Made by a program: the position numbers and the translations under genes
The notes under the pieces: model-generated
What the model saw: only the letters and a program-made list of their open reading frames with translations
The model's database searches: none
What the model was told of the DNA's origin: nothing
Part shown: piece by piece, positions 52,170 through 64,000 of the stretch
How the letters are laid out: every line of letters begins with the position of its first letter
How positions within the stretch are numbered: the first letter of the stretch is position 1
NCBI GenBank assembly: GCA_035423825.1
Contig: DAOMMM010000001.1
Location: forward strand, 359,516 to 423,515
DNA length: 64,000 nt
Source of the DNA: Methylophilus sp.
Lineage (GTDB): Bacteria > Pseudomonadota > Gammaproteobacteria > Burkholderiales > Methylophilaceae
Direction of reading: 5' to 3'

Positions 52170-52970
52170 TTATTTTTTTAGAACGCTTGGTACTAGTTCC
52201 GTACCGCCATCATTGCCTGCGCTCAAGTTGTCATAAAGGATCATGATGGATACGCGGCGGTTCTTTGCGCGGTCTTCTTCCGCGTCATTAGTGCTGACAG
52301 GCTGCGTTGCCCCGAATCCAAGCGCACTCAAGCGATTCTCTTCTACGCCAAAACTGCTTAACATTCTGACTACACTGCTTGCGCGGACTGCGGAAAGCTC
52401 CCAGTTGGAATAAAACTGAGCGCTATGTATCGGCGTATCATCGGTATGCCCTTCTACCTGAATGGCATGGTCGTCCTGCAGCAATAAGGCTGAAATTTGC
52501 TGCATTACATTGTTGGCGTCTTGGTTGATCTCTGCTGAGCCAGAGGCGAACAGAAGGCTATCTTTGATGTCGATGCGTATCCCTTTGTTGTTCTGCACTA
52601 CACGAATCTTCTCCTCTTTCACCAAGCTAGAAAGGCTATTGGATAAATTTATACCCAGTTTTGTCATCGATTCACGCTCGGCTTGCAGTCTTTGCTGATG
52701 CAATTGAGTCATCGGCAGAGGTTTCAGTACAGATTTATCGTTCTTGGTGGAGTTCTCCTGGATATGCAGCGGCTTGCTGGGTACCGGCGGTGTGTTGGTA
52801 AAGGCGCTATTGATCGACTCGGATAGCTTTTTGTATTTTTTCTGATTCACAGAGGAAATTGCATACATCACCACAAAGAAAGCAAACAGCAGCGTAATGA
52901 AATCTGCGTAGGATACAAGCCAACGTTCAGGGTTGTCGTGTTCCTCGAGTTCGCGTTTACGTCTGATCAT
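52170..52970 (-). CDS. motD: second stator, MotB/MotD-type
   Basis: ERWLVSYADFITLLFAFFVVMY; OmpA-like VEGHTD..NWELSAVRA..NRRVSI. Confidence 0.9.
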   Translation of the reverse strand: MIRRKRELEEHDNPERWLVSYADFITLLFAFFVVMYAISSVNQKKYKKLSESINSAFTNTPPVPSKPLHIQENSTKNDKSVLKPLPMTQLHQQRLQAERESMTKLGINLSNSLSSLVKEEKIRVVQNNKGIRIDIKDSLLFASGSAEINQDANNVMQQISALLLQDDHAIQVEGHTDDTPIHSAQFYSNWELSAVRASSVVRMLSSFGVEENRLSALGFGATQPVSTNDAEEDRAKNRRVSIMILYDNLSAGNDGGTELVPSVLKK

Positions 52971-52989
52971 TGTGATTTGTTTTAATCGG

Positions 52990-53730
52990 TTATCTTAAAT
53001 AAGAACGCAAGCGTTCCTCGATGATTTTTGGGTGATCGCCCCTGGCCATCGATACCCAGGCGTTCAGCAACATCTCACGCCGCATCAGTTCGTGCTGGAT
53101 ATGCGATTTAAGCTTGTTTGCGATCGGCAGAAAAACAAGGTTTGCCAAACCTACGCCATAGATGGTGGCGACAAATGCAACGGCGATTCCGCTACCCAAT
53201 AGTTCTGGGTCAGACAAGTTCTCCATGACGTGAATCAATCCTAACACTGCACCGAGAATGCCTATCGTAGGCGCATAGCCGCCGGCAGCATCCCAAATCT
53301 TTGCTGCATTGCGCTGTTCCATTTCGTAGAAGTGCATATCGATAGCACAGACTTCACGGATCTTTTCAGGAGGTGTCGCATCTGCAATCAATTGCAGGCC
53401 TTTGATCACATAGGGATCAGTCTCTCTAGTGATGAAGTTTTCCAGCGCCAACATACCTTCTTTGCGTACGACGGCCGCCCAGTAGCTAGCCCGCTTTGCC
53501 AATTCCTCACGGTCATCCACCGGGGGGTGCAGTATCAACTTTGACATGGTGACCCCTTGCAAAAAACTTTTAGGTTTTGTTTGCAACAGCACTGCACCAA
53601 GCGTGCCAAAGAACACAATAAAAAATGCGGCTGGCTGCAGGATAGAACCAATCCGGCCACCTTCTATTGCTTGCCCTAACAGGATACCTATCAGGGCAAG
53701 CAATATACCGCTTACACTACCCCAGTCCAT
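52990..53730 (-). CDS. motC: second stator, MotA/MotC-type (246 aa)
   Basis: EGMLALE, GGYAPTIGILGAVLGLI, FVATIYGV; start overlaps the fliA end by 19 nt. Confidence 0.9.
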   Translation of the reverse strand: MDWGSVSGILLALIGILLGQAIEGGRIGSILQPAAFFIVFFGTLGAVLLQTKPKSFLQGVTMSKLILHPPVDDREELAKRASYWAAVVRKEGMLALENFITRETDPYVIKGLQLIADATPPEKIREVCAIDMHFYEMEQRNAAKIWDAAGGYAPTIGILGAVLGLIHVMENLSDPELLGSGIAVAFVATIYGVGLANLVFLPIANKLKSHIQHELMRREMLLNAWVSMARGDHPKIIEERLRSYLR

Positions 53731-54449
53731 GATTGTTCCTTAAGTGCGGCACGTAATCTGGCAACCGCCTGGCTGTGTAGCTGGCATACTCTTGATTCCG
53801 ACACGTTCATGACTGCCCCGATTTCCTTGAGATTGAGCTCTTGCTCGTAGTACAAACCCATCAATATTTTTTCTCGCTCCGGAAGAGAATCAATGGCATC
53901 TACGAGAGCCTCTCTGAAATCACCTTCCAATAGGCCACGTATCGGGTCGCCCGAATCATCCTTCACGAATCGATCCAGGAAATGCTCGTTGCTGTTTTCC
54001 CCATCATGAAAGTCTTCGTAATAGACAAGCTGATGTCCACCACAGTCCTCTAGCATTTCATAATAATCTTCCAGCGACAAACCCAAGTGTTTTGCCACTT
54101 CGCTTTCGCTGGGCTGCCTTCCAAGTTTTTGTTCAAGCGCCGCTATCGCAGCCTCTACGTCGCGCATGTTCTTTCTCGCGCTTCGCGGCAACCAGTCGGC
54201 ACTGCGAAGTTCATCCAGCATTGCGCCGCGGATTCGCTGTGCAGCGTAGGTTTCGAACTGCGCGCCATGCGTATCTTCATATTTGTTGACTGCATCCAGC
54301 AAGCCCATCATGCCAGCCTGGACCAGGTCATCGATTTCGACACTGGGAGGAAGTTTGGCTTTTAGCTGGTAAGCCAGCCGCTTGACCAAGCCTGCATGTT
54401 GGCGCAATTGCACGTCTTTCTGGTCCATTTTTCCGTTTATCGTATACAT
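53712..54449 (-). CDS. fliA: sigma28
   Basis: DDLVQAGMMGLL, RIRGAMLDELR, SESRVCQLHSQA. Confidence 0.97.
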   Translation of the reverse strand: MYTINGKMDQKDVQLRQHAGLVKRLAYQLKAKLPPSVEIDDLVQAGMMGLLDAVNKYEDTHGAQFETYAAQRIRGAMLDELRSADWLPRSARKNMRDVEAAIAALEQKLGRQPSESEVAKHLGLSLEDYYEMLEDCGGHQLVYYEDFHDGENSNEHFLDRFVKDDSGDPIRGLLEGDFREALVDAIDSLPEREKILMGLYYEQELNLKEIGAVMNVSESRVCQLHSQAVARLRAALKEQSWTGVV

Positions 54450-60245: not shown

Positions 60246-60286
60246 GGCTCATGTAGGTGTTTGTAGGACAAACACCTACATGAGCC
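60246..60286. repeat. perfect 19-bp inverted repeat containing TGTAGG/CCTACA boxes
   Basis: GGCTCATGTAGGTGTTTGT-AGG-ACAAACACCTACATGAGCC. Confidence 0.9.
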
Positions 60287-60413
60287 TGTCCGCTCGTCCT
60301 ACACAAAAAACCGACAAATCCCAATATTTTGTTTTGCTTAAAAAGCTCAAAGTACGACTCACACGAGTAGCGCATTATTAACGAGTTTTTTAGCAGATAT
60401 TTAGGGGTGAAAA

Positions 60414-60719
60414 ATGAATGAAAACGAAATGATGTCGGAAATCAGAGATGCCAATCTGAATTATTTGATGCTCGCACAACAAATGATTCGCGCAGACAAA
60501 GCTACTGCTATCTTCCGCTTGGGCATCAGCAAAGATATTGCTGACCTGCTTGAAGGCCTGAGCAATCTTCAGATTCTCAAACTGGCTAGCAACAACATGA
60601 TGTTGGCTCGTTTCCGTTTTGAAGATGGTGCGATTCTGAGCATGTTGACTGACTACACCAAAGATCGCGCATTGGCGAACTCACATACTGCAATCTTGTT
60701 GTCTGGGCAGGAAGCTTAA
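60414..60719 (+). CDS. flhD: flagellar master regulator subunit
   Basis: EIRDANLNYLMLAQQMIRADKATAIFRLGI, LARFRF. Confidence 0.95.
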   Translation: MNENEMMSEIRDANLNYLMLAQQMIRADKATAIFRLGISKDIADLLEGLSNLQILKLASNNMMLARFRFEDGAILSMLTDYTKDRALANSHTAILLSGQEA

Positions 60720-60755: not shown

Positions 60756-61325
60756 ATGGAAAAGGCAAACGTTAAGAAAAGTGTTGTAGCTGAGGCAGAA
60801 CAGATTCAGCTGGCGATTCAAATGATTAAATTGGGTGCAAGATTACAGTTGCTGGAAGCACAAACGAGTTTGTCACGCGAGCGCTTGATCAAACTATACA
60901 AAGAGCTAAAAGGCGTGTCGCCACCTAAAGGTATGCTGCCATTCTCTACTGACTGGTTCCTGACTTGGCAACCTAATATTCATTCTTCTATTTTTATGAA
61001 TATATACAATTACCTGGTTGAGCATGCGGATGTAAAGGACATCACTGCAATCATCAAAGCCTACAGCTTATACTTGCAGCAAATCGGCCATGATTCTGAT
61101 GACGAACCAGTTCTATCCATGACGCGCGCCTGGACGTTGGTACGCTTCATCGAGAGCAAAATGTTGAAACTGCATACCTGCAGCTGCTGTGGCGGCAAAT
61201 TCGTGGTCAATGCGTATGACTTGAACCAGAATTACTATTGCAACTTATGCCATATTCCATCTCGCGCTGGTAAAACCAAAAAAGCTAAAGAGATGACTTA
61301 TAAGATGGTAACGGTAGCAGCTTAA
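60756..61325 (+). CDS. flhC: flagellar master regulator subunit
   Basis: LGARLQLLE, PPKGMLPFSTDWF, zinc finger CSCC...CNLC. Confidence 0.96.
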   Translation: MEKANVKKSVVAEAEQIQLAIQMIKLGARLQLLEAQTSLSRERLIKLYKELKGVSPPKGMLPFSTDWFLTWQPNIHSSIFMNIYNYLVEHADVKDITAIIKAYSLYLQQIGHDSDDEPVLSMTRAWTLVRFIESKMLKLHTCSCCGGKFVVNAYDLNQNYYCNLCHIPSRAGKTKKAKEMTYKMVTVAA

Positions 61326-61335
61326 ACTATGTATC

Positions 61336-62217
61336 ATGGACAAAAGACACGAAAACATCCCCTTGTCAGTGCGCCACGCGGGTTATCCTGCAGGTCAGAT
61401 ATTTGTACGACAAGGGGTAATGCTTTCAAGCGCCAAACATCTTTTTAGAGACCATATTTCCGGAGTATGTAAGGTACCCTCCGCCCAGGCATTCCTGCTA
61501 CAAGGAATTGCTCTAATTGCTGTAGTCTTGAGTGTTCAGGCTATCACTTATTTTGTTCCGCTACGCTTTAATCTATTTCTGCTGGTACTGATGCAGGCAC
61601 TGTTCGCTTCTGGCATGTGTGCGATTATCCGTATGGCAATTTGGTGGCGCTGGATTCATTTTGTATTCCCTATTGCGTTATGGTGCATGTCTCAATGGCA
61701 GTTGCCTAACGAGATATATCTAATCGGTTTTCTGGTCAGTCTTGGCTTGTTCTGGACGACTTTTCGTAGCCAAGTTCCCTTTTATCCATCCCGTCCAATT
61801 GTCTGGCGTCAGGTGGCTGAGCTTCTCCCCAAAGATAAACCTATCCGCATGATTGATATCGGCAGCGGCTTGGGGGATTTGGTGATGCATATCGCAGATG
61901 CAAGGCCTAGTAGCCGTGTTTCGGGAATCGAGATTGCACCTTTGCCATTTTTATTAAGCAAGTGGCGGGCCTGGTTTAGGAAATCAACGGCTGTTTTTAT
62001 CCGTGGCAATTACCAGTTGCTTGATTTTTCAGAGTATGACGTCGTATTTGCCTATTTATCTCCCGCCGCCATGCCAGCACTATGGGAAAAGGTACATCAA
62101 GAAATGAAGCAAGGCAGCATGCTAATCAGTTATGAATTTGAGATTCCGGGAGTGAGGCCAAGTCTGGATATACCAGGTAAAGGACATTCTCCCAATATCT
62201 ACGTGTGGAAAATATAG
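61336..62217 (+). CDS. membrane-anchored class I SAM-dependent methyltransferase (FAM173/ATPSCKMT-like)
   Basis: N-terminal hydrophobic segments; QVPFYPS; DIGSGLG; GIEIAP; YDVVFAYLSP; LISYEF. More likely start is ATG 61420. Confidence 0.8.
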   Translation: MDKRHENIPLSVRHAGYPAGQIFVRQGVMLSSAKHLFRDHISGVCKVPSAQAFLLQGIALIAVVLSVQAITYFVPLRFNLFLLVLMQALFASGMCAIIRMAIWWRWIHFVFPIALWCMSQWQLPNEIYLIGFLVSLGLFWTTFRSQVPFYPSRPIVWRQVAELLPKDKPIRMIDIGSGLGDLVMHIADARPSSRVSGIEIAPLPFLLSKWRAWFRKSTAVFIRGNYQLLDFSEYDVVFAYLSPAAMPALWEKVHQEMKQGSMLISYEFEIPGVRPSLDIPGKGHSPNIYVWKI

Positions 62218-62276: not shown

Positions 62277-62302
62277 CAGCCGGATATTCCGGCTGTTTTT
62301 TT
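62277..62302 (+). terminator. Rho-independent terminator closing flhDC-methyltransferase
   Basis: CAGCCGGA-TAT-TCCGGCTG followed by T7. Confidence 0.85.
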
Positions 62303-62348: not shown

Positions 62349-62436
62349 CAAGATTGATTTTCCATAGCCCCTGCTATCCTGATGAAAATTTTAGAAGAAA
62401 AGGGAACATGGTTTCCTGTTTTTGGAGCGTTTCATT

Positions 62437-63297
62437 ATGTTTGTCATCATTGGATATGTCGTTGTTTGTGGCGCTGTGTTTGGGGGCTATGCGTTGGCTG
62501 GAGGGCATCTGGGAGCTTTATGGCAACCGCTGGAAGTCCTGATGATTTTTGGCGGGGCATTGGGTGCGTTTATCGTCGGCAATGACTCCAAAGCGATCAA
62601 AGCTACGATGAAAGCCTTGCCTACCGTGTTCAAGGGTTCCAAATATAACAAGGCGCTGTACATGGATCTTCTCGCGCTACTCTTCGAAATTTTAAGCAAG
62701 ATACGTAAAGACGGCATGATGTCGATTGAGAATGATGTAGAAAATCCGGAAGCCAGTCCGCTATTCAGCAAATATCCGAAGATCCTGCATGACCATCATT
62801 TGACAGAGTTCATCTGTGACTATCTGCGATTGATGGTCTCTGGGAATATGGATGCCTTTCAGGTAGAGAATCTGATGGACAATGAACTGGAGACGCATCA
62901 CATGGAAGGCCACGTGCCAGCACATTGCATCAATAGGCTGGGGGATGGTTTGCCGGCATTTGGTATCGTCGCCGCGGTGATGGGTGTGGTGCATACGATG
63001 GAGAATGTGGCACTGCCGCCAGCTGAACTGGGTATCTTGATTGCACATGCGCTGGTGGGTACTTTTCTGGGTATTCTACTGGCTTATGGGTTTGTAGGCC
63101 CACTAGGTGGCTTGCTGGAACAAAAGCTGGAAGAAAGCAGCAAGATGTTCCAGACTGTTAAAGTCACGCTGCTTGCCAGCCTCAACGGATATGCGCCAAC
63201 TATTGCAGTCGAGTTTGGCCGAAAAGTGCTTTATTCGACCGAGCGTCCGAAATTTGCCGAGCTTGAATCACACGTGAAACAAGCCAAGGGCAAATAA
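62437..63297 (+). CDS. motA: stator A subunit (enteric type)
   Basis: LWQPLEVLMIFGGA, GDGLPAFGIVAAVMGVV, ALVGTFLG, AVEFGRK. ATG 62437 has a GGAG RBS. Confidence 0.96.
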   Translation: MFVIIGYVVVCGAVFGGYALAGGHLGALWQPLEVLMIFGGALGAFIVGNDSKAIKATMKALPTVFKGSKYNKALYMDLLALLFEILSKIRKDGMMSIENDVENPEASPLFSKYPKILHDHHLTEFICDYLRLMVSGNMDAFQVENLMDNELETHHMEGHVPAHCINRLGDGLPAFGIVAAVMGVVHTMENVALPPAELGILIAHALVGTFLGILLAYGFVGPLGGLLEQKLEESSKMFQTVKVTLLASLNGYAPTIAVEFGRKVLYSTERPKFAELESHVKQAKGK

Positions 63298-63330: not shown

Positions 63331-64000
63331 ATGGCAGAGCAACCAAATAAACCGATTATCGTTAAAAAGATTAAAAAAGGCGGTGGGGGTCATCACGGTG
63401 GCGCCTGGAAAATTGCCTATGCCGATTTTGTTACTGCGATGATGGCGTTCTTCCTGCTGATGTGGTTGCTAGGGTCAGCCTCAAAAGGGCAGCTGGTGGG
63501 TATCGCCGAATATTTCAAGATGCCTTTGAAAGTCGCGGTCATGGGCGGGCCTAGTGTTGGCGCAAGCGATTCATTGCTCAAAGGTGGCGGTAAAGACCTG
63601 ACTAAAGACCAGCTGCAGGTCAAACCGCAAGATGGTACAAAAGAGAAGAACAAGACAGCCGACTTGAAAGATAAGGTCGTTGATGCCGATGAATTGAAGA
63701 AGGCTCTAGCTCAGGCTGAAAAGGCGAAATTGGAAGAACTTAAATCGAAGATAGAAAGTGCAGTTGCATCCAGTGAAACATTAAGAAACTTTAAAAACCA
63801 GCTTCTGCTCGACATCACTTCAGAAGGTTTGCGCATTATCATCGTGGATGAACAGAATCGTCCCATGTTCAACTCAGCAAAAGCCGAACTGCAGCCTTAC
63901 GCCAAACAGATTCTTCAGGAAATTGGCCAGATGCTGAACGGTGTTCCAAACAAGATCAGCCTGTCGGGTCATACGGATGCAACACCATATGCGAGTGGCG
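63331..64000 (+). CDS. motB: stator B subunit, 3'-truncated by the window edge
   Basis: Read manually: MAEQPNKPIIVKKIKKGGGGHHGGAWKIAYADFVTAMMAFFLLMWLL...SLSGHTDA; open to the end of the window. Confidence 0.93.
   Translation, partial: MAEQPNKPIIVKKIKKGGGGHHGGAWKIAYADFVTAMMAFFLLMWLLGSASKGQLVGIAEYFKMPLKVAVMGGPSVGASDSLLKGGGKDLTKDQLQVKPQDGTKEKNKTADLKDKVVDADELKKALAQAEKAKLEELKSKIESAVASSETLRNFKNQLLLDITSEGLRIIIVDEQNRPMFNSAKAELQPYAKQILQEIGQMLNGVPNKISLSGHTDATPYASG

What the first reader, a model, noticed from the sequence alone, without database searches (positions are those of the whole stretch)
61336..62217. Membrane-anchored FAM173-like methyltransferase in the flhDC transcription unit
Seen: it follows flhC with no terminator and is closed by a strong terminator just before motA. 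It has N-terminal TM segments and the motifs VPFYPS, DIGSGLG, GIEIAP, YDVVFAYL and LISYEF. Known (recalled): this motif order matches the FAM173A/B (ANTKMT/ATPSCKMT) and archaeal protein-lysine methyltransferases, whose eukaryotic members methylate membrane energy-transducing proteins such as ATP synthase subunit c. Inference: a motility-dedicated protein methyltransferase, possibly acting on a stator, the export gate or FlhDC, distinct from CheR and FliB.
Basis: partly seen in the sequence, partly recalled or inferred. Interest (0 to 1): 0.7.

Follow-up and report, generated by a model that had tools for sequence, protein, structure and literature searches.

The report
Stator-linked membrane lysine-methyltransferase-like enzyme
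The gene between flhC and motA encodes a real, uncharacterised membrane-anchored methyltransferase, related to the archaeal enzyme aKMT, that occurs almost only in bacteria with flagellar stator genes and usually sits beside them, so it may modify the flagellar motor in a way not yet described.

Summary
ORF 61336-62217 (+) encodes a 293-aa protein, which may instead start at M29 (ATG 61420). It has four predicted TM helices and a compact class I SAM methyltransferase domain. All five quoted motifs are present. The gene starts 10 nt after flhC and is followed by a hairpin (-13.8 kcal/mol) plus T7.

By sequence and by fold, the catalytic domain is closest to the archaeal protein-lysine methyltransferase aKMT and its Salinibacter homologue 5bxy. 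The literature places aKMT with mitochondrial FAM173A/B.

The conserved partner is motAB, not flhDC.
- In 251 genomes of the GTDB order, 132 of 134 genomes with the gene have MotA, and at most 2 of 93 MotA-less genomes have it.
- In 92 of 121 cases it is adjacent to motAB and co-oriented. Most often it lies directly after motB, with gaps of -38 to +64 nt.
- Outside the order, 17 of 17 carriers have MotA and 0 of 17 have FlhC.

The four-TM form was found only in this GTDB class. More distant relatives are soluble and not linked to motAB.

No Pfam or NCBIfam family reached its cut-off, and I found no paper on it.

My best reading is a stator-associated, membrane-tethered protein-lysine methyltransferase. 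The substrate is unproven. The comparison of stator lysines found no position that tracks the gene.

The parts
61336..62217 (+). ORF of the membrane-anchored methyltransferase (293 aa; alternative start ATG 61420 = M29)
61477..61767 (+). Four-helix transmembrane domain (aa 48-144). It carries the family-invariant W103-W104 at the predicted cytoplasmic end of TM3 (nt 61642-61647), plus F111/P112.
   Evidence: AF2 helices. Conservation across 132 homologues. Topology from K/R counts, (inference).
61768..62214 (+). Compact aKMT-like class I SAM methyltransferase domain (aa 145-293). VPFYPS lies at 61774-61791, motif I DIGSGLG at 61855-61875, post-I GIEIAP at 61924-61941, invariant L-S-P at 62056-62064 and LISYEF at 62122-62139.
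62277..62302 (+). Intrinsic-terminator-like hairpin plus T7 after the methyltransferase gene
   Evidence: Seen in only 12 of 86 related loci.
60414..60719 (+). flhD
   Evidence: PF05247, E 2.4e-42
60756..61325 (+). flhC. Its stop lies 10 nt before the ORF's first ATG.
   Evidence: PF05280, E 1.4e-89
62437..63297 (+). motA (stator A subunit), the conserved genomic partner of the methyltransferase
63331..64000 (+). motB (stator B subunit; runs off the window)

Best explanation
The gene encodes a membrane-tethered, SAM-dependent methyltransferase of the aKMT/FAM173 kind (seven-beta-strand protein-lysine methyltransferases). It acts as a lineage-specific accessory of the flagellar stator.

Proposed mechanism:
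- A conserved four-helix membrane domain holds a minimal catalytic domain of about 150 aa against the cytoplasmic face of the inner membrane.
- The family's VP[FY]xP[ST] segment starts only 2-3 residues after TM4.
- I infer that the active site can therefore reach only residues at the membrane-cytoplasm interface.
- The enzyme is made together with the stator. In most lineages its gene follows motB and is probably translationally coupled to it. In this organism it sits at the end of the flhDC operon.
- It would methylate one or more juxtamembrane lysines of MotA/MotB, or of another membrane protein of the motor, and so tune stator assembly or function.

This parallels the mitochondrial relatives, which trimethylate a membrane-proximal lysine of the ATP synthase c-ring and of the ADP/ATP carrier.

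Shown here: the fold and motifs, the membrane architecture (predicted), the synteny and the phyletic coupling.
Inferred: lysine specificity, the stator as substrate, and any effect on the motor.

My odds for the sub-claims:
- aKMT-clade methyltransferase: about 0.9.
- Function tied to the stator or motility: about 0.8.
- Protein-lysine substrate: about 0.6.
- MotA/MotB as the substrate: about 0.35-0.4.
For: Family and fold:
- phmmer against PDB puts aKMT (5fa8, E 6e-8) and 5bxy (E 2e-7) first.
- A profile of 44 homologues gives aKMT E 1.1e-11 over the whole catalytic domain. The next family scores 5e-5.
- The AF2 model has pLDDT 86.6.
- Foldseek gives 5bxy TM 0.86 (rmsd 1.6 A) and aKMT TM 0.84-0.85. 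The rest score 1e-8 to 1e-7.
- 5bxy is 49% identical to aKMT.

Catalytic competence:
- G176, G178, G180, E199, P148, L241-S242-P243, M246 and F268 are 96-100% conserved in 132 homologues.

Link to the stator:
- 80 of 80 best genome loci lie beside flhDC and/or motAB. In Polynucleobacter flhDC is inverted, but MT-motAB stays together.
- In 251 genomes of the order: MT+MotA+ 132, MT+MotA- 2, MT-MotA+ 26, neither 91.
- 92 of 121 are adjacent and co-oriented. Of these, 76 lie directly after motB and 16 directly before motA.
- The motB-to-MT gap is -38 to +64 nt, with several 4-nt overlaps.
- One displaced copy follows motC-motD, and two follow a second motB.
- Joint absence and joint presence both occur within the same families or genera: f1, f28/g32, f38/g42, f43, f48.
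- Displaced copies sit among housekeeping genes, yet those genomes still have MotA.
- Outside the order, 9 of 15 full-length homologues lie after motAB, and carriers show MotA in 17 of 17.
- Soluble, domain-only relatives in other classes are not beside motAB.

Literature: FAM173B and FAM173A are aKMT homologues with an N-terminal TMD. They methylate Lys43 of ATP synthase subunit c and Lys52 of ANT, on matrix-facing membrane-proximal loops (PMC9006661, PMC5828452).
Against: - No biochemical or genetic data exist for any member.
- No lysine of MotA or MotB strictly follows the gene's presence. MotB K27 is invariant with or without the gene. Only a mild, phylogenetically uncorrected loss of K appears at cytoplasmic MotA positions 55, 112, 230, 281, 284 and 286 in 20 MT-less genomes.
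- 26 of 158 MotA-bearing genomes, including whole families, lack the gene, so it is dispensable for a working motor.
- About a fifth of copies are not beside any motility gene.
- The co-occurrence statistic (Fisher p 2e-41) is not corrected for phylogeny.
- The protein evolves much faster than its neighbours: 43-64% identity against 86-97% for MotA within the genus.
- The second-best PDB profile hits are phosphoethanolamine N-methyltransferases, so a non-protein amine substrate is not excluded.
- Direct similarity to FAM173A/B was not tested.
Confidence: 0.45

Rival explanations
1. It is a motility-linked protein methyltransferase, but its substrate is another membrane or membrane-proximal flagellar or chemotaxis protein rather than MotA/MotB. 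Candidates are FliL, FliF/FliG, the FlhA/FlhB export gate or a chemoreceptor.
For: The same fold, synteny and phyletic data apply. In this window and many relatives flhBA lie next to flhDC-MT-motAB. No MotA or MotB lysine tracks the gene.
Against: The tightest and most widespread linkage is specifically to motB (gaps of -38 to +64 nt) or to motA, and in three displaced cases to another stator gene (motD once, a second motB twice). When flhDC or flhBA move away, the gene stays with motAB (Polynucleobacter).
Confidence: 0.2
2. It methylates a membrane lipid head group or another small hydrophobic amine rather than a protein. The conserved four-helix domain would be the substrate-binding site, and any effect on the motor would be indirect, through the local membrane.
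For: After aKMT, the next PDB profile hits are phosphoethanolamine N-methyltransferases (E 5e-5 to 1e-4). The membrane domain carries invariant residues (W103, W104, F111) rather than being a plain anchor. The active site is predicted to sit at the membrane surface.
Against: The gap to aKMT-type enzymes is 5-6 orders of magnitude in both sequence and fold searches. A lipid-modifying enzyme would not be expected to be lost together with motAB in several families.
Confidence: 0.1
3. It is a broad-specificity membrane-protein lysine methyltransferase, like the promiscuous aKMT, with no dedicated role in motility. Its place beside motAB would be an inherited gene order.
For: aKMT itself is broad in specificity (PMC9006661). 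About 20% of copies lie among unrelated housekeeping genes. The protein evolves fast. Many motile lineages do without it.
Against: At most 2 of 93 MotA-less genomes keep it, one at a contig edge and one a weak partial hit. It disappears with MotA within single genera (g32, g42) and families. Copies that have moved away from motAB are still found only in MotA-bearing genomes. Adjacency survives across different orders and two different gene orders.
Confidence: 0.12
4. It modifies or regulates the master regulator FlhDC, as its position in the flhDC operon here might suggest.
For: In this window it starts 10 nt after flhC, and a terminator separates it from motA. The order flhDC-MT holds in 80 related loci.
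Against: 76 of 92 adjacent cases in the order lie after motB, not after flhC. All 17 carriers outside the order lack FlhC. FlhDC is a soluble DNA-binding complex, whereas the enzyme's active site is held at the membrane.
Confidence: 0.03

Closest known systems
aKMT of Sulfolobus islandicus (PDB 5FA8/5FAD/5JWJ) and its bacterial homologue from Salinibacter ruber (PDB 5BXY)
   Same: Both have a compact seven-beta-strand SAM methyltransferase domain of about 150 aa. They share the VP[FY]xP[ST] segment before motif I, motif I DxGxGxG, the post-I acidic residue and the C-terminal K..E..G..S-x-EF block. Scores: profile E 1e-11, Foldseek TM 0.84-0.86, rmsd 1.6-2.2 A.
   Different: aKMT and 5BXY are soluble proteins of about 160 aa with no membrane domain. 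aKMT methylates many soluble proteins. Identity is only 24-27%. This family has an invariant L-S-P after strand 4 where aKMT has L-L-T. It scores 24 bits against the NCBIfam aKMT equivalog model, whose cut-off is 200.
Mitochondrial ATPSc-KMT (FAM173B) and ANT-KMT (FAM173A)
   Same: The literature describes both as aKMT homologues in which an N-terminal transmembrane segment precedes the methyltransferase domain. They methylate a membrane-proximal lysine of an integral, energy-transducing membrane protein, in one case the rotor ring of a rotary ion-driven machine (PMC9006661, PMC5828452). The architecture and the proposed logic are parallel.
   Different: They are eukaryotic and mitochondrial. 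They have one putative TMD plus a 'pre-MTase' domain, rather than a conserved four-helix bundle. Their substrates are known, while none is known here. Direct sequence or structure comparison could not be run, because no FAM173 entry is in the libraries I could reach.
CheR and FliB, the known methyltransferases of bacterial motility
   Same: All are SAM-dependent enzymes encoded among motility genes.
   Different: CheR is a soluble glutamate O-methyltransferase acting on chemoreceptors. FliB is a soluble flagellin lysine methylase. Neither family matched this protein at E <= 1 in Pfam or NCBIfam.

Membership tests
aKMT-type seven-beta-strand protein-lysine methyltransferases | Compact Rossmann-like 7BS catalytic domain of about 150 aa that superposes on aKMT | tested here: met
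   AF2 pLDDT 86.6. Foldseek gives 5bxy TM 0.86 and 5fad/5fa8 TM 0.84-0.85 at E 1e-11 to 1e-13. The next hits score 5e-8 or worse.
aKMT-type seven-beta-strand protein-lysine methyltransferases | Significant sequence similarity over the whole catalytic domain, clearly above other methyltransferase families | tested here: met
   phmmer E 6e-8. Profile E 1.1e-11, covering aKMT residues 3-155 of 161. The next family scores 4.7e-5.
aKMT-type seven-beta-strand protein-lysine methyltransferases | VP[FY]xP[ST] segment ahead of motif I, motif I DxGxGxG, and an acidic post-I residue | tested here: met
   VPFYPS 147-152, DIGSGLG 174-180 and E199 align with aKMT VPYVPT, DLGCGDG and E. They are 93-100% conserved in 132 homologues.
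aKMT-type seven-beta-strand protein-lysine methyltransferases | Passes the curated NCBIfam equivalog model for archaeal protein-lysine N-methyltransferase (NF041081) | tested here: not met
   24.1 bits against a cut-off of 200, and only residues 219-276 matched. It is a relative, not an equivalog.
aKMT-type seven-beta-strand protein-lysine methyltransferases | Lysine-specific protein methylation activity | not testable with these tools
   Needs an enzyme assay or methyl-proteomics.
FAM173A/B (ANT-KMT / ATPSc-KMT) | N-terminal membrane anchor directly preceding the aKMT-like domain | tested here: inconclusive
   A membrane domain does precede the catalytic domain, but it has four conserved helices, not the single putative TMD plus pre-MTase domain described in PMC9006661. 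Homology of the membrane parts is unknown.
FAM173A/B (ANT-KMT / ATPSc-KMT) | Direct sequence or structure similarity to FAM173 proteins | not tested
   No FAM173 chain appeared in either PDB search, and no FAM173 sequence was available to the tools. The relation is inferred through aKMT (PMC5828452).
CheR / FliB motility methyltransferases | Match to the CheR or FliB family models | tested here: not met
   Neither family is among the Pfam or NCBIfam matches at E <= 1.
RNA methyltransferases (label of PDB 5BXY) | The closest relatives are demonstrated RNA methyltransferases | tested here: not met
   5BXY is 49% identical to aKMT (E 2e-47), so its deposited name does not set it apart from the lysine methyltransferase. 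True RNA methyltransferases (TrmI, RlmC, TrmB) score only E 3e-4 or worse.

The most novel reading that the evidence does not exclude
The flagellar stator MotA5B2 carries a dedicated, previously unknown lysine methylation. It would be installed by a membrane-tethered enzyme homologous to the one that trimethylates the mitochondrial ATP synthase c-ring. Two unrelated ion-driven rotary machines would then be tuned by the same enzyme lineage. The bacterial TM-anchored form could also be close to the ancestor of FAM173A/B.
Probability: 0.3. Interest if true: 0.85.

Novelty: new variant of a known kind. Interest (0 to 1): 0.68.

Why it matters
No post-translational methylation of the stator or rotor of the bacterial flagellar motor is known to me, and I found none in the paper library.

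This is a single-copy gene of unknown function. It is embedded in the master-regulator or stator operons of most motile Betaproteobacteria (132 of 158 sampled MotA-bearing genomes) and of several other gammaproteobacterial lineages. No Pfam or NCBIfam family reached its cut-off for it.

The gene gives a concrete, cheap test: deletion, a motif-I point mutant and methyl-lysine mass spectrometry in Herbaspirillum or Methylobacillus. That test asks whether stator assembly or torque generation is tuned by lysine methylation.

It also offers a bacterial counterpart for how the mitochondrial FAM173 enzymes act on membrane-embedded substrates.

Tried and rejected
1. Looking for the target lysine by comparison. 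I aligned MotA (119 MT+ against 20 MT-) and MotB (111 against 20), both as plain column frequencies and as nearest-neighbour pairs. No cytoplasmic lysine is present only when the gene is present. The differences at MotB K63 and K155 are periplasmic. The MotA K230, K281 and K286 differences are weak and confounded by phylogeny. I keep them as a lead only.

2. Transcript evidence. The window comes from an activated-sludge organism. The only metatranscriptome holding any words (X14) showed just conserved flhC and motA fragments from relatives.

3. Terminator conservation. The hairpin after the gene is not general (12 of 86 loci). It therefore cannot be used to argue that the gene belongs to flhDC rather than motAB across the family.

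4. Neighbours of displaced copies. These are argG, DUF520, DJ-1/PfpI, a citrate transporter, a periplasmic binding protein, Usp, an AI-2E transporter and CysG. There is no common theme.

5. FlhDC as substrate. Rejected, because carriers outside the order have no FlhC.

6. Direct comparison with human FAM173A/B. This was not possible. There is no such chain in PDB, and I did not type a sequence from memory.

7. Literature searches for a motAB-linked methyltransferase or for methyl-lysine on MotA or MotB found nothing relevant. The library is incomplete, so this is not proof of absence.

8. I could not read model coordinates. Whether W103/W104 touch the active site was therefore not measured.

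Full report
**What is in the window**

- The ORF at 61336-62217 (+) is real.
- It is flanked by flhD (60414-60719), flhC (60756-61325), motA (62437-63297) and motB (63331 onward), all confirmed by Pfam.
- The ORF's first ATG lies 10 nt after the flhC stop, and no terminator-like site lies between them.
- A hairpin at 62277-62295 (8 bp, 6 G-C pairs, dG -13.8 kcal/mol) is followed by T7. It stands 60 nt after the stop codon and about 140 nt before motA.
- The start codon is uncertain. ATG 61336 has no Shine-Dalgarno sequence, whereas ATG 61420 (M29) follows AAGGGG. Residues 1-28 are disordered in the model and unconserved. Several relatives can only start at the equivalent of M29. This does not affect the functional parts.

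**What the protein is**

- Pfam and NCBIfam give only sub-threshold, generic class I methyltransferase hits. The best NCBIfam hit is the archaeal protein-lysine N-methyltransferase model, at 24 bits against a cut-off of 200.
- Against PDB sequences, the best matches are Sulfolobus aKMT (5fa8/5jwj, E 6e-8) and Salinibacter 5bxy (E 2e-7), over the whole catalytic domain.
- A profile of 44 homologues raises aKMT to E 1.1e-11, while the next family stays at 5e-5.
- AlphaFold2 with that alignment gives a confident model (pLDDT 86.6): a short helix at 31-44, four TM helices at 48-73, 80-97, 102-121 and 125-144, then a Rossmann-type domain at 154-292.
- Foldseek against PDB puts 5bxy (TM 0.86, rmsd 1.6 A) and aKMT (TM 0.84-0.85) four to five orders of magnitude ahead of everything else.
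- 5bxy is deposited as an 'RNA methyltransferase', but it is 49% identical to aKMT.
- aKMT is the archaeal homologue of the mitochondrial FAM173B (ATPSc-KMT) and FAM173A (ANT-KMT). Both have an N-terminal TMD, and both trimethylate a membrane-proximal lysine of an integral membrane protein (PMC5828452, PMC9006661).
- I could not compare the protein with FAM173 directly.

**The family**

- The protein collection holds 2411 relatives at E <= 1e-3 among the word-sharing candidates.
- An exhaustive search of 50%-identity cluster representatives found 145 at E <= 1e-30 and 904 at E <= 1e-10. The 150 best listed are mostly 230-300 aa long, the size of the full membrane-plus-catalytic architecture.
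- Source names are only 'class I SAM-dependent methyltransferase' or 'hypothetical protein'.
- Across 132 non-identical members, these residues are 96-100% conserved: W103-W104 (start of TM3), V147-P148, G176/G178/G180, E199, L241-S242-P243, M246, K252, E256 and F268.
- The SAM-binding motifs are therefore under selection, and the membrane domain is more than a greasy anchor.
- From the K/R distribution, the N-terminus and the catalytic domain are cytoplasmic. By the same topology, W103/W104 lie at the cytoplasmic end of TM3, and VPFYPS begins 2-3 residues after TM4.
- I infer from this that the active site is held at the inner face of the membrane.

**Genomic context, the main result**

Within the genus:
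- The order flhD-flhC-MT-motA-motB is found in every locus examined.
- The methyltransferase diverges much faster (43-64% identity) than FlhC (74-90%) or MotA (86-97%).

Named genomes:
- All 80 best loci are flanked by flhDC and/or motAB. They come from Methylotenera, Methylophilus, Methylobacillus, Methylovorus, Herbaspirillum, Massilia, Janthinobacterium, Noviherbaspirillum, Herminiimonas, Polynucleobacter, Sulfuriferula and Acidovorax.
- In two Polynucleobacter genomes flhDC is inverted, while MT-motA-motB stays together.

An even sample of 251 genomes of the GTDB order (to my knowledge, the former Betaproteobacteria):
- The gene is in 134 genomes, about 123 of them with strong full-length matches. 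MotA is in 158.
- 132 genomes have both and 91 have neither.
- 2 have the methyltransferase without MotA. One copy lies at a contig edge, and the other is a weak partial hit.
- 26 have MotA without the methyltransferase.
- Both states occur within single families and genera (f1, f28/g32, f38/g42, f43, f48), so the two genes were lost or gained together several times.
- Of 121 genomes where both positions were listed, 92 have the genes adjacent and co-oriented. In 16 the gene lies just upstream of motA, and in 76 just downstream of motB.
- In 35 motAB-MT loci, the distance from the motB stop to the likely start is -38 to +64 nt, with several 4-nt overlaps (one locus with an intervening gene, L107, aside). 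In flhDC-MT-motA loci the gene abuts flhC and is separated from motA by a median of 196 nt.

Displaced copies:
- Two are still beside flhC.
- One follows motC-motD, and two follow a second motB.
- The rest lie among unrelated housekeeping genes, yet in genomes that all keep MotA.

Beyond the order:
- In other orders of the class, 9 of 15 full-length homologues again lie directly after motAB.
- One lineage has motA-motB-rsgA(opposite strand)-MT-orn.
- All 17 carriers tested have MotA, and none has FlhC.
- Elsewhere in the phylum, only soluble, domain-only relatives were found, and none is beside motAB.

**Interpretation**

- The conserved partner is the stator, not FlhDC. Placement at the 3' end of flhDC, and the terminator that closes it here, are lineage-specific or even local features (12 of 86 loci).
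- The most economical reading is a membrane-tethered protein-lysine methyltransferase that acts on a juxtamembrane lysine of the stator or of a neighbouring motor component.
- By analogy with FAM173B and FAM173A, its role would be to optimise rather than to be essential. Whole motile families lack it.
- I tried to find the target by comparing MotA and MotB from genomes with and without the gene. No lysine tracks it.
  - MotB K27, in WKIAYAD32, is invariant in both groups.
  - Only a weak loss of lysine appears at cytoplasmic MotA positions 55, 112, 230, 281, 284 and 286 in genomes lacking the gene.
- The substrate therefore remains open. Rival substrates are another motor protein or a lipid amine. 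A merely inherited gene order with broad specificity also cannot be excluded, although the repeated joint loss argues against it.

**Novelty**

- I found no paper on a motAB- or flhDC-linked methyltransferase of this kind, or on methyl-lysine in MotA or MotB. The library is incomplete.
- Another first-stage reader flagged the same kind of gene in a different genome. That is not independent evidence, but it is consistent with the synteny measured here.
- I class the finding as a new variant of a known kind: an aKMT/FAM173-type catalytic domain fused to a conserved four-helix membrane domain and coupled to flagellar stator genes.

Noticed in passing
window 52170-53730 (-), after fliA 53712-54449 (-): The window encodes a second stator pair: a MotA/ExbB-family protein (52990-53730) and a MotB_plug+OmpA protein (52170-52970), in the Pseudomonas-like order flhA-flhF-flhG-fliA-motC-motD. 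In one other genome (L181) the methyltransferase sits directly after this motCD pair.
   Followed up: partly
L021 5654-8090 and L022 5633-8110 (same genus as the window): In two relatives, about 2.4 kb of extra DNA lies between the methyltransferase gene and motA. Its content was not examined.
   Followed up: no
G039:C3:416463-435939 and several places in G030: Six weak methyltransferase-domain matches (E 1e-4 to 3e-7) lie within about 20 kb in one betaproteobacterial genome, and about ten are scattered in another. These may be a tandem array of other small methyltransferases.
   Followed up: no
L055 (Methylovorus mays) and L182 (G153): In Methylovorus, flhDC is followed by the methyltransferase and a second, more distant methyltransferase-like match. 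motA lies about 12 kb away instead of adjacent.
   Followed up: no
window 60246-60303: A long perfect palindrome (catgtaggtgtttgtaggacaaacacctacatg) lies upstream of flhD. Another first-stage reader also flagged it (e1-5232623).
   Followed up: no
window 62401-62417: A second, weaker hairpin plus T-run (7 bp, 3 G-C pairs) lies about 20 nt before the motA start codon and overlaps its likely ribosome-binding region.
   Followed up: no
L107 5383-9837 (G472): A gammaproteobacterial lineage has the order motA-motB-rsgA(opposite strand)-methyltransferase-orn. The gene order around it resembles what I recall of the Pseudomonas motAB-rsgA-orn region.
   Followed up: partly
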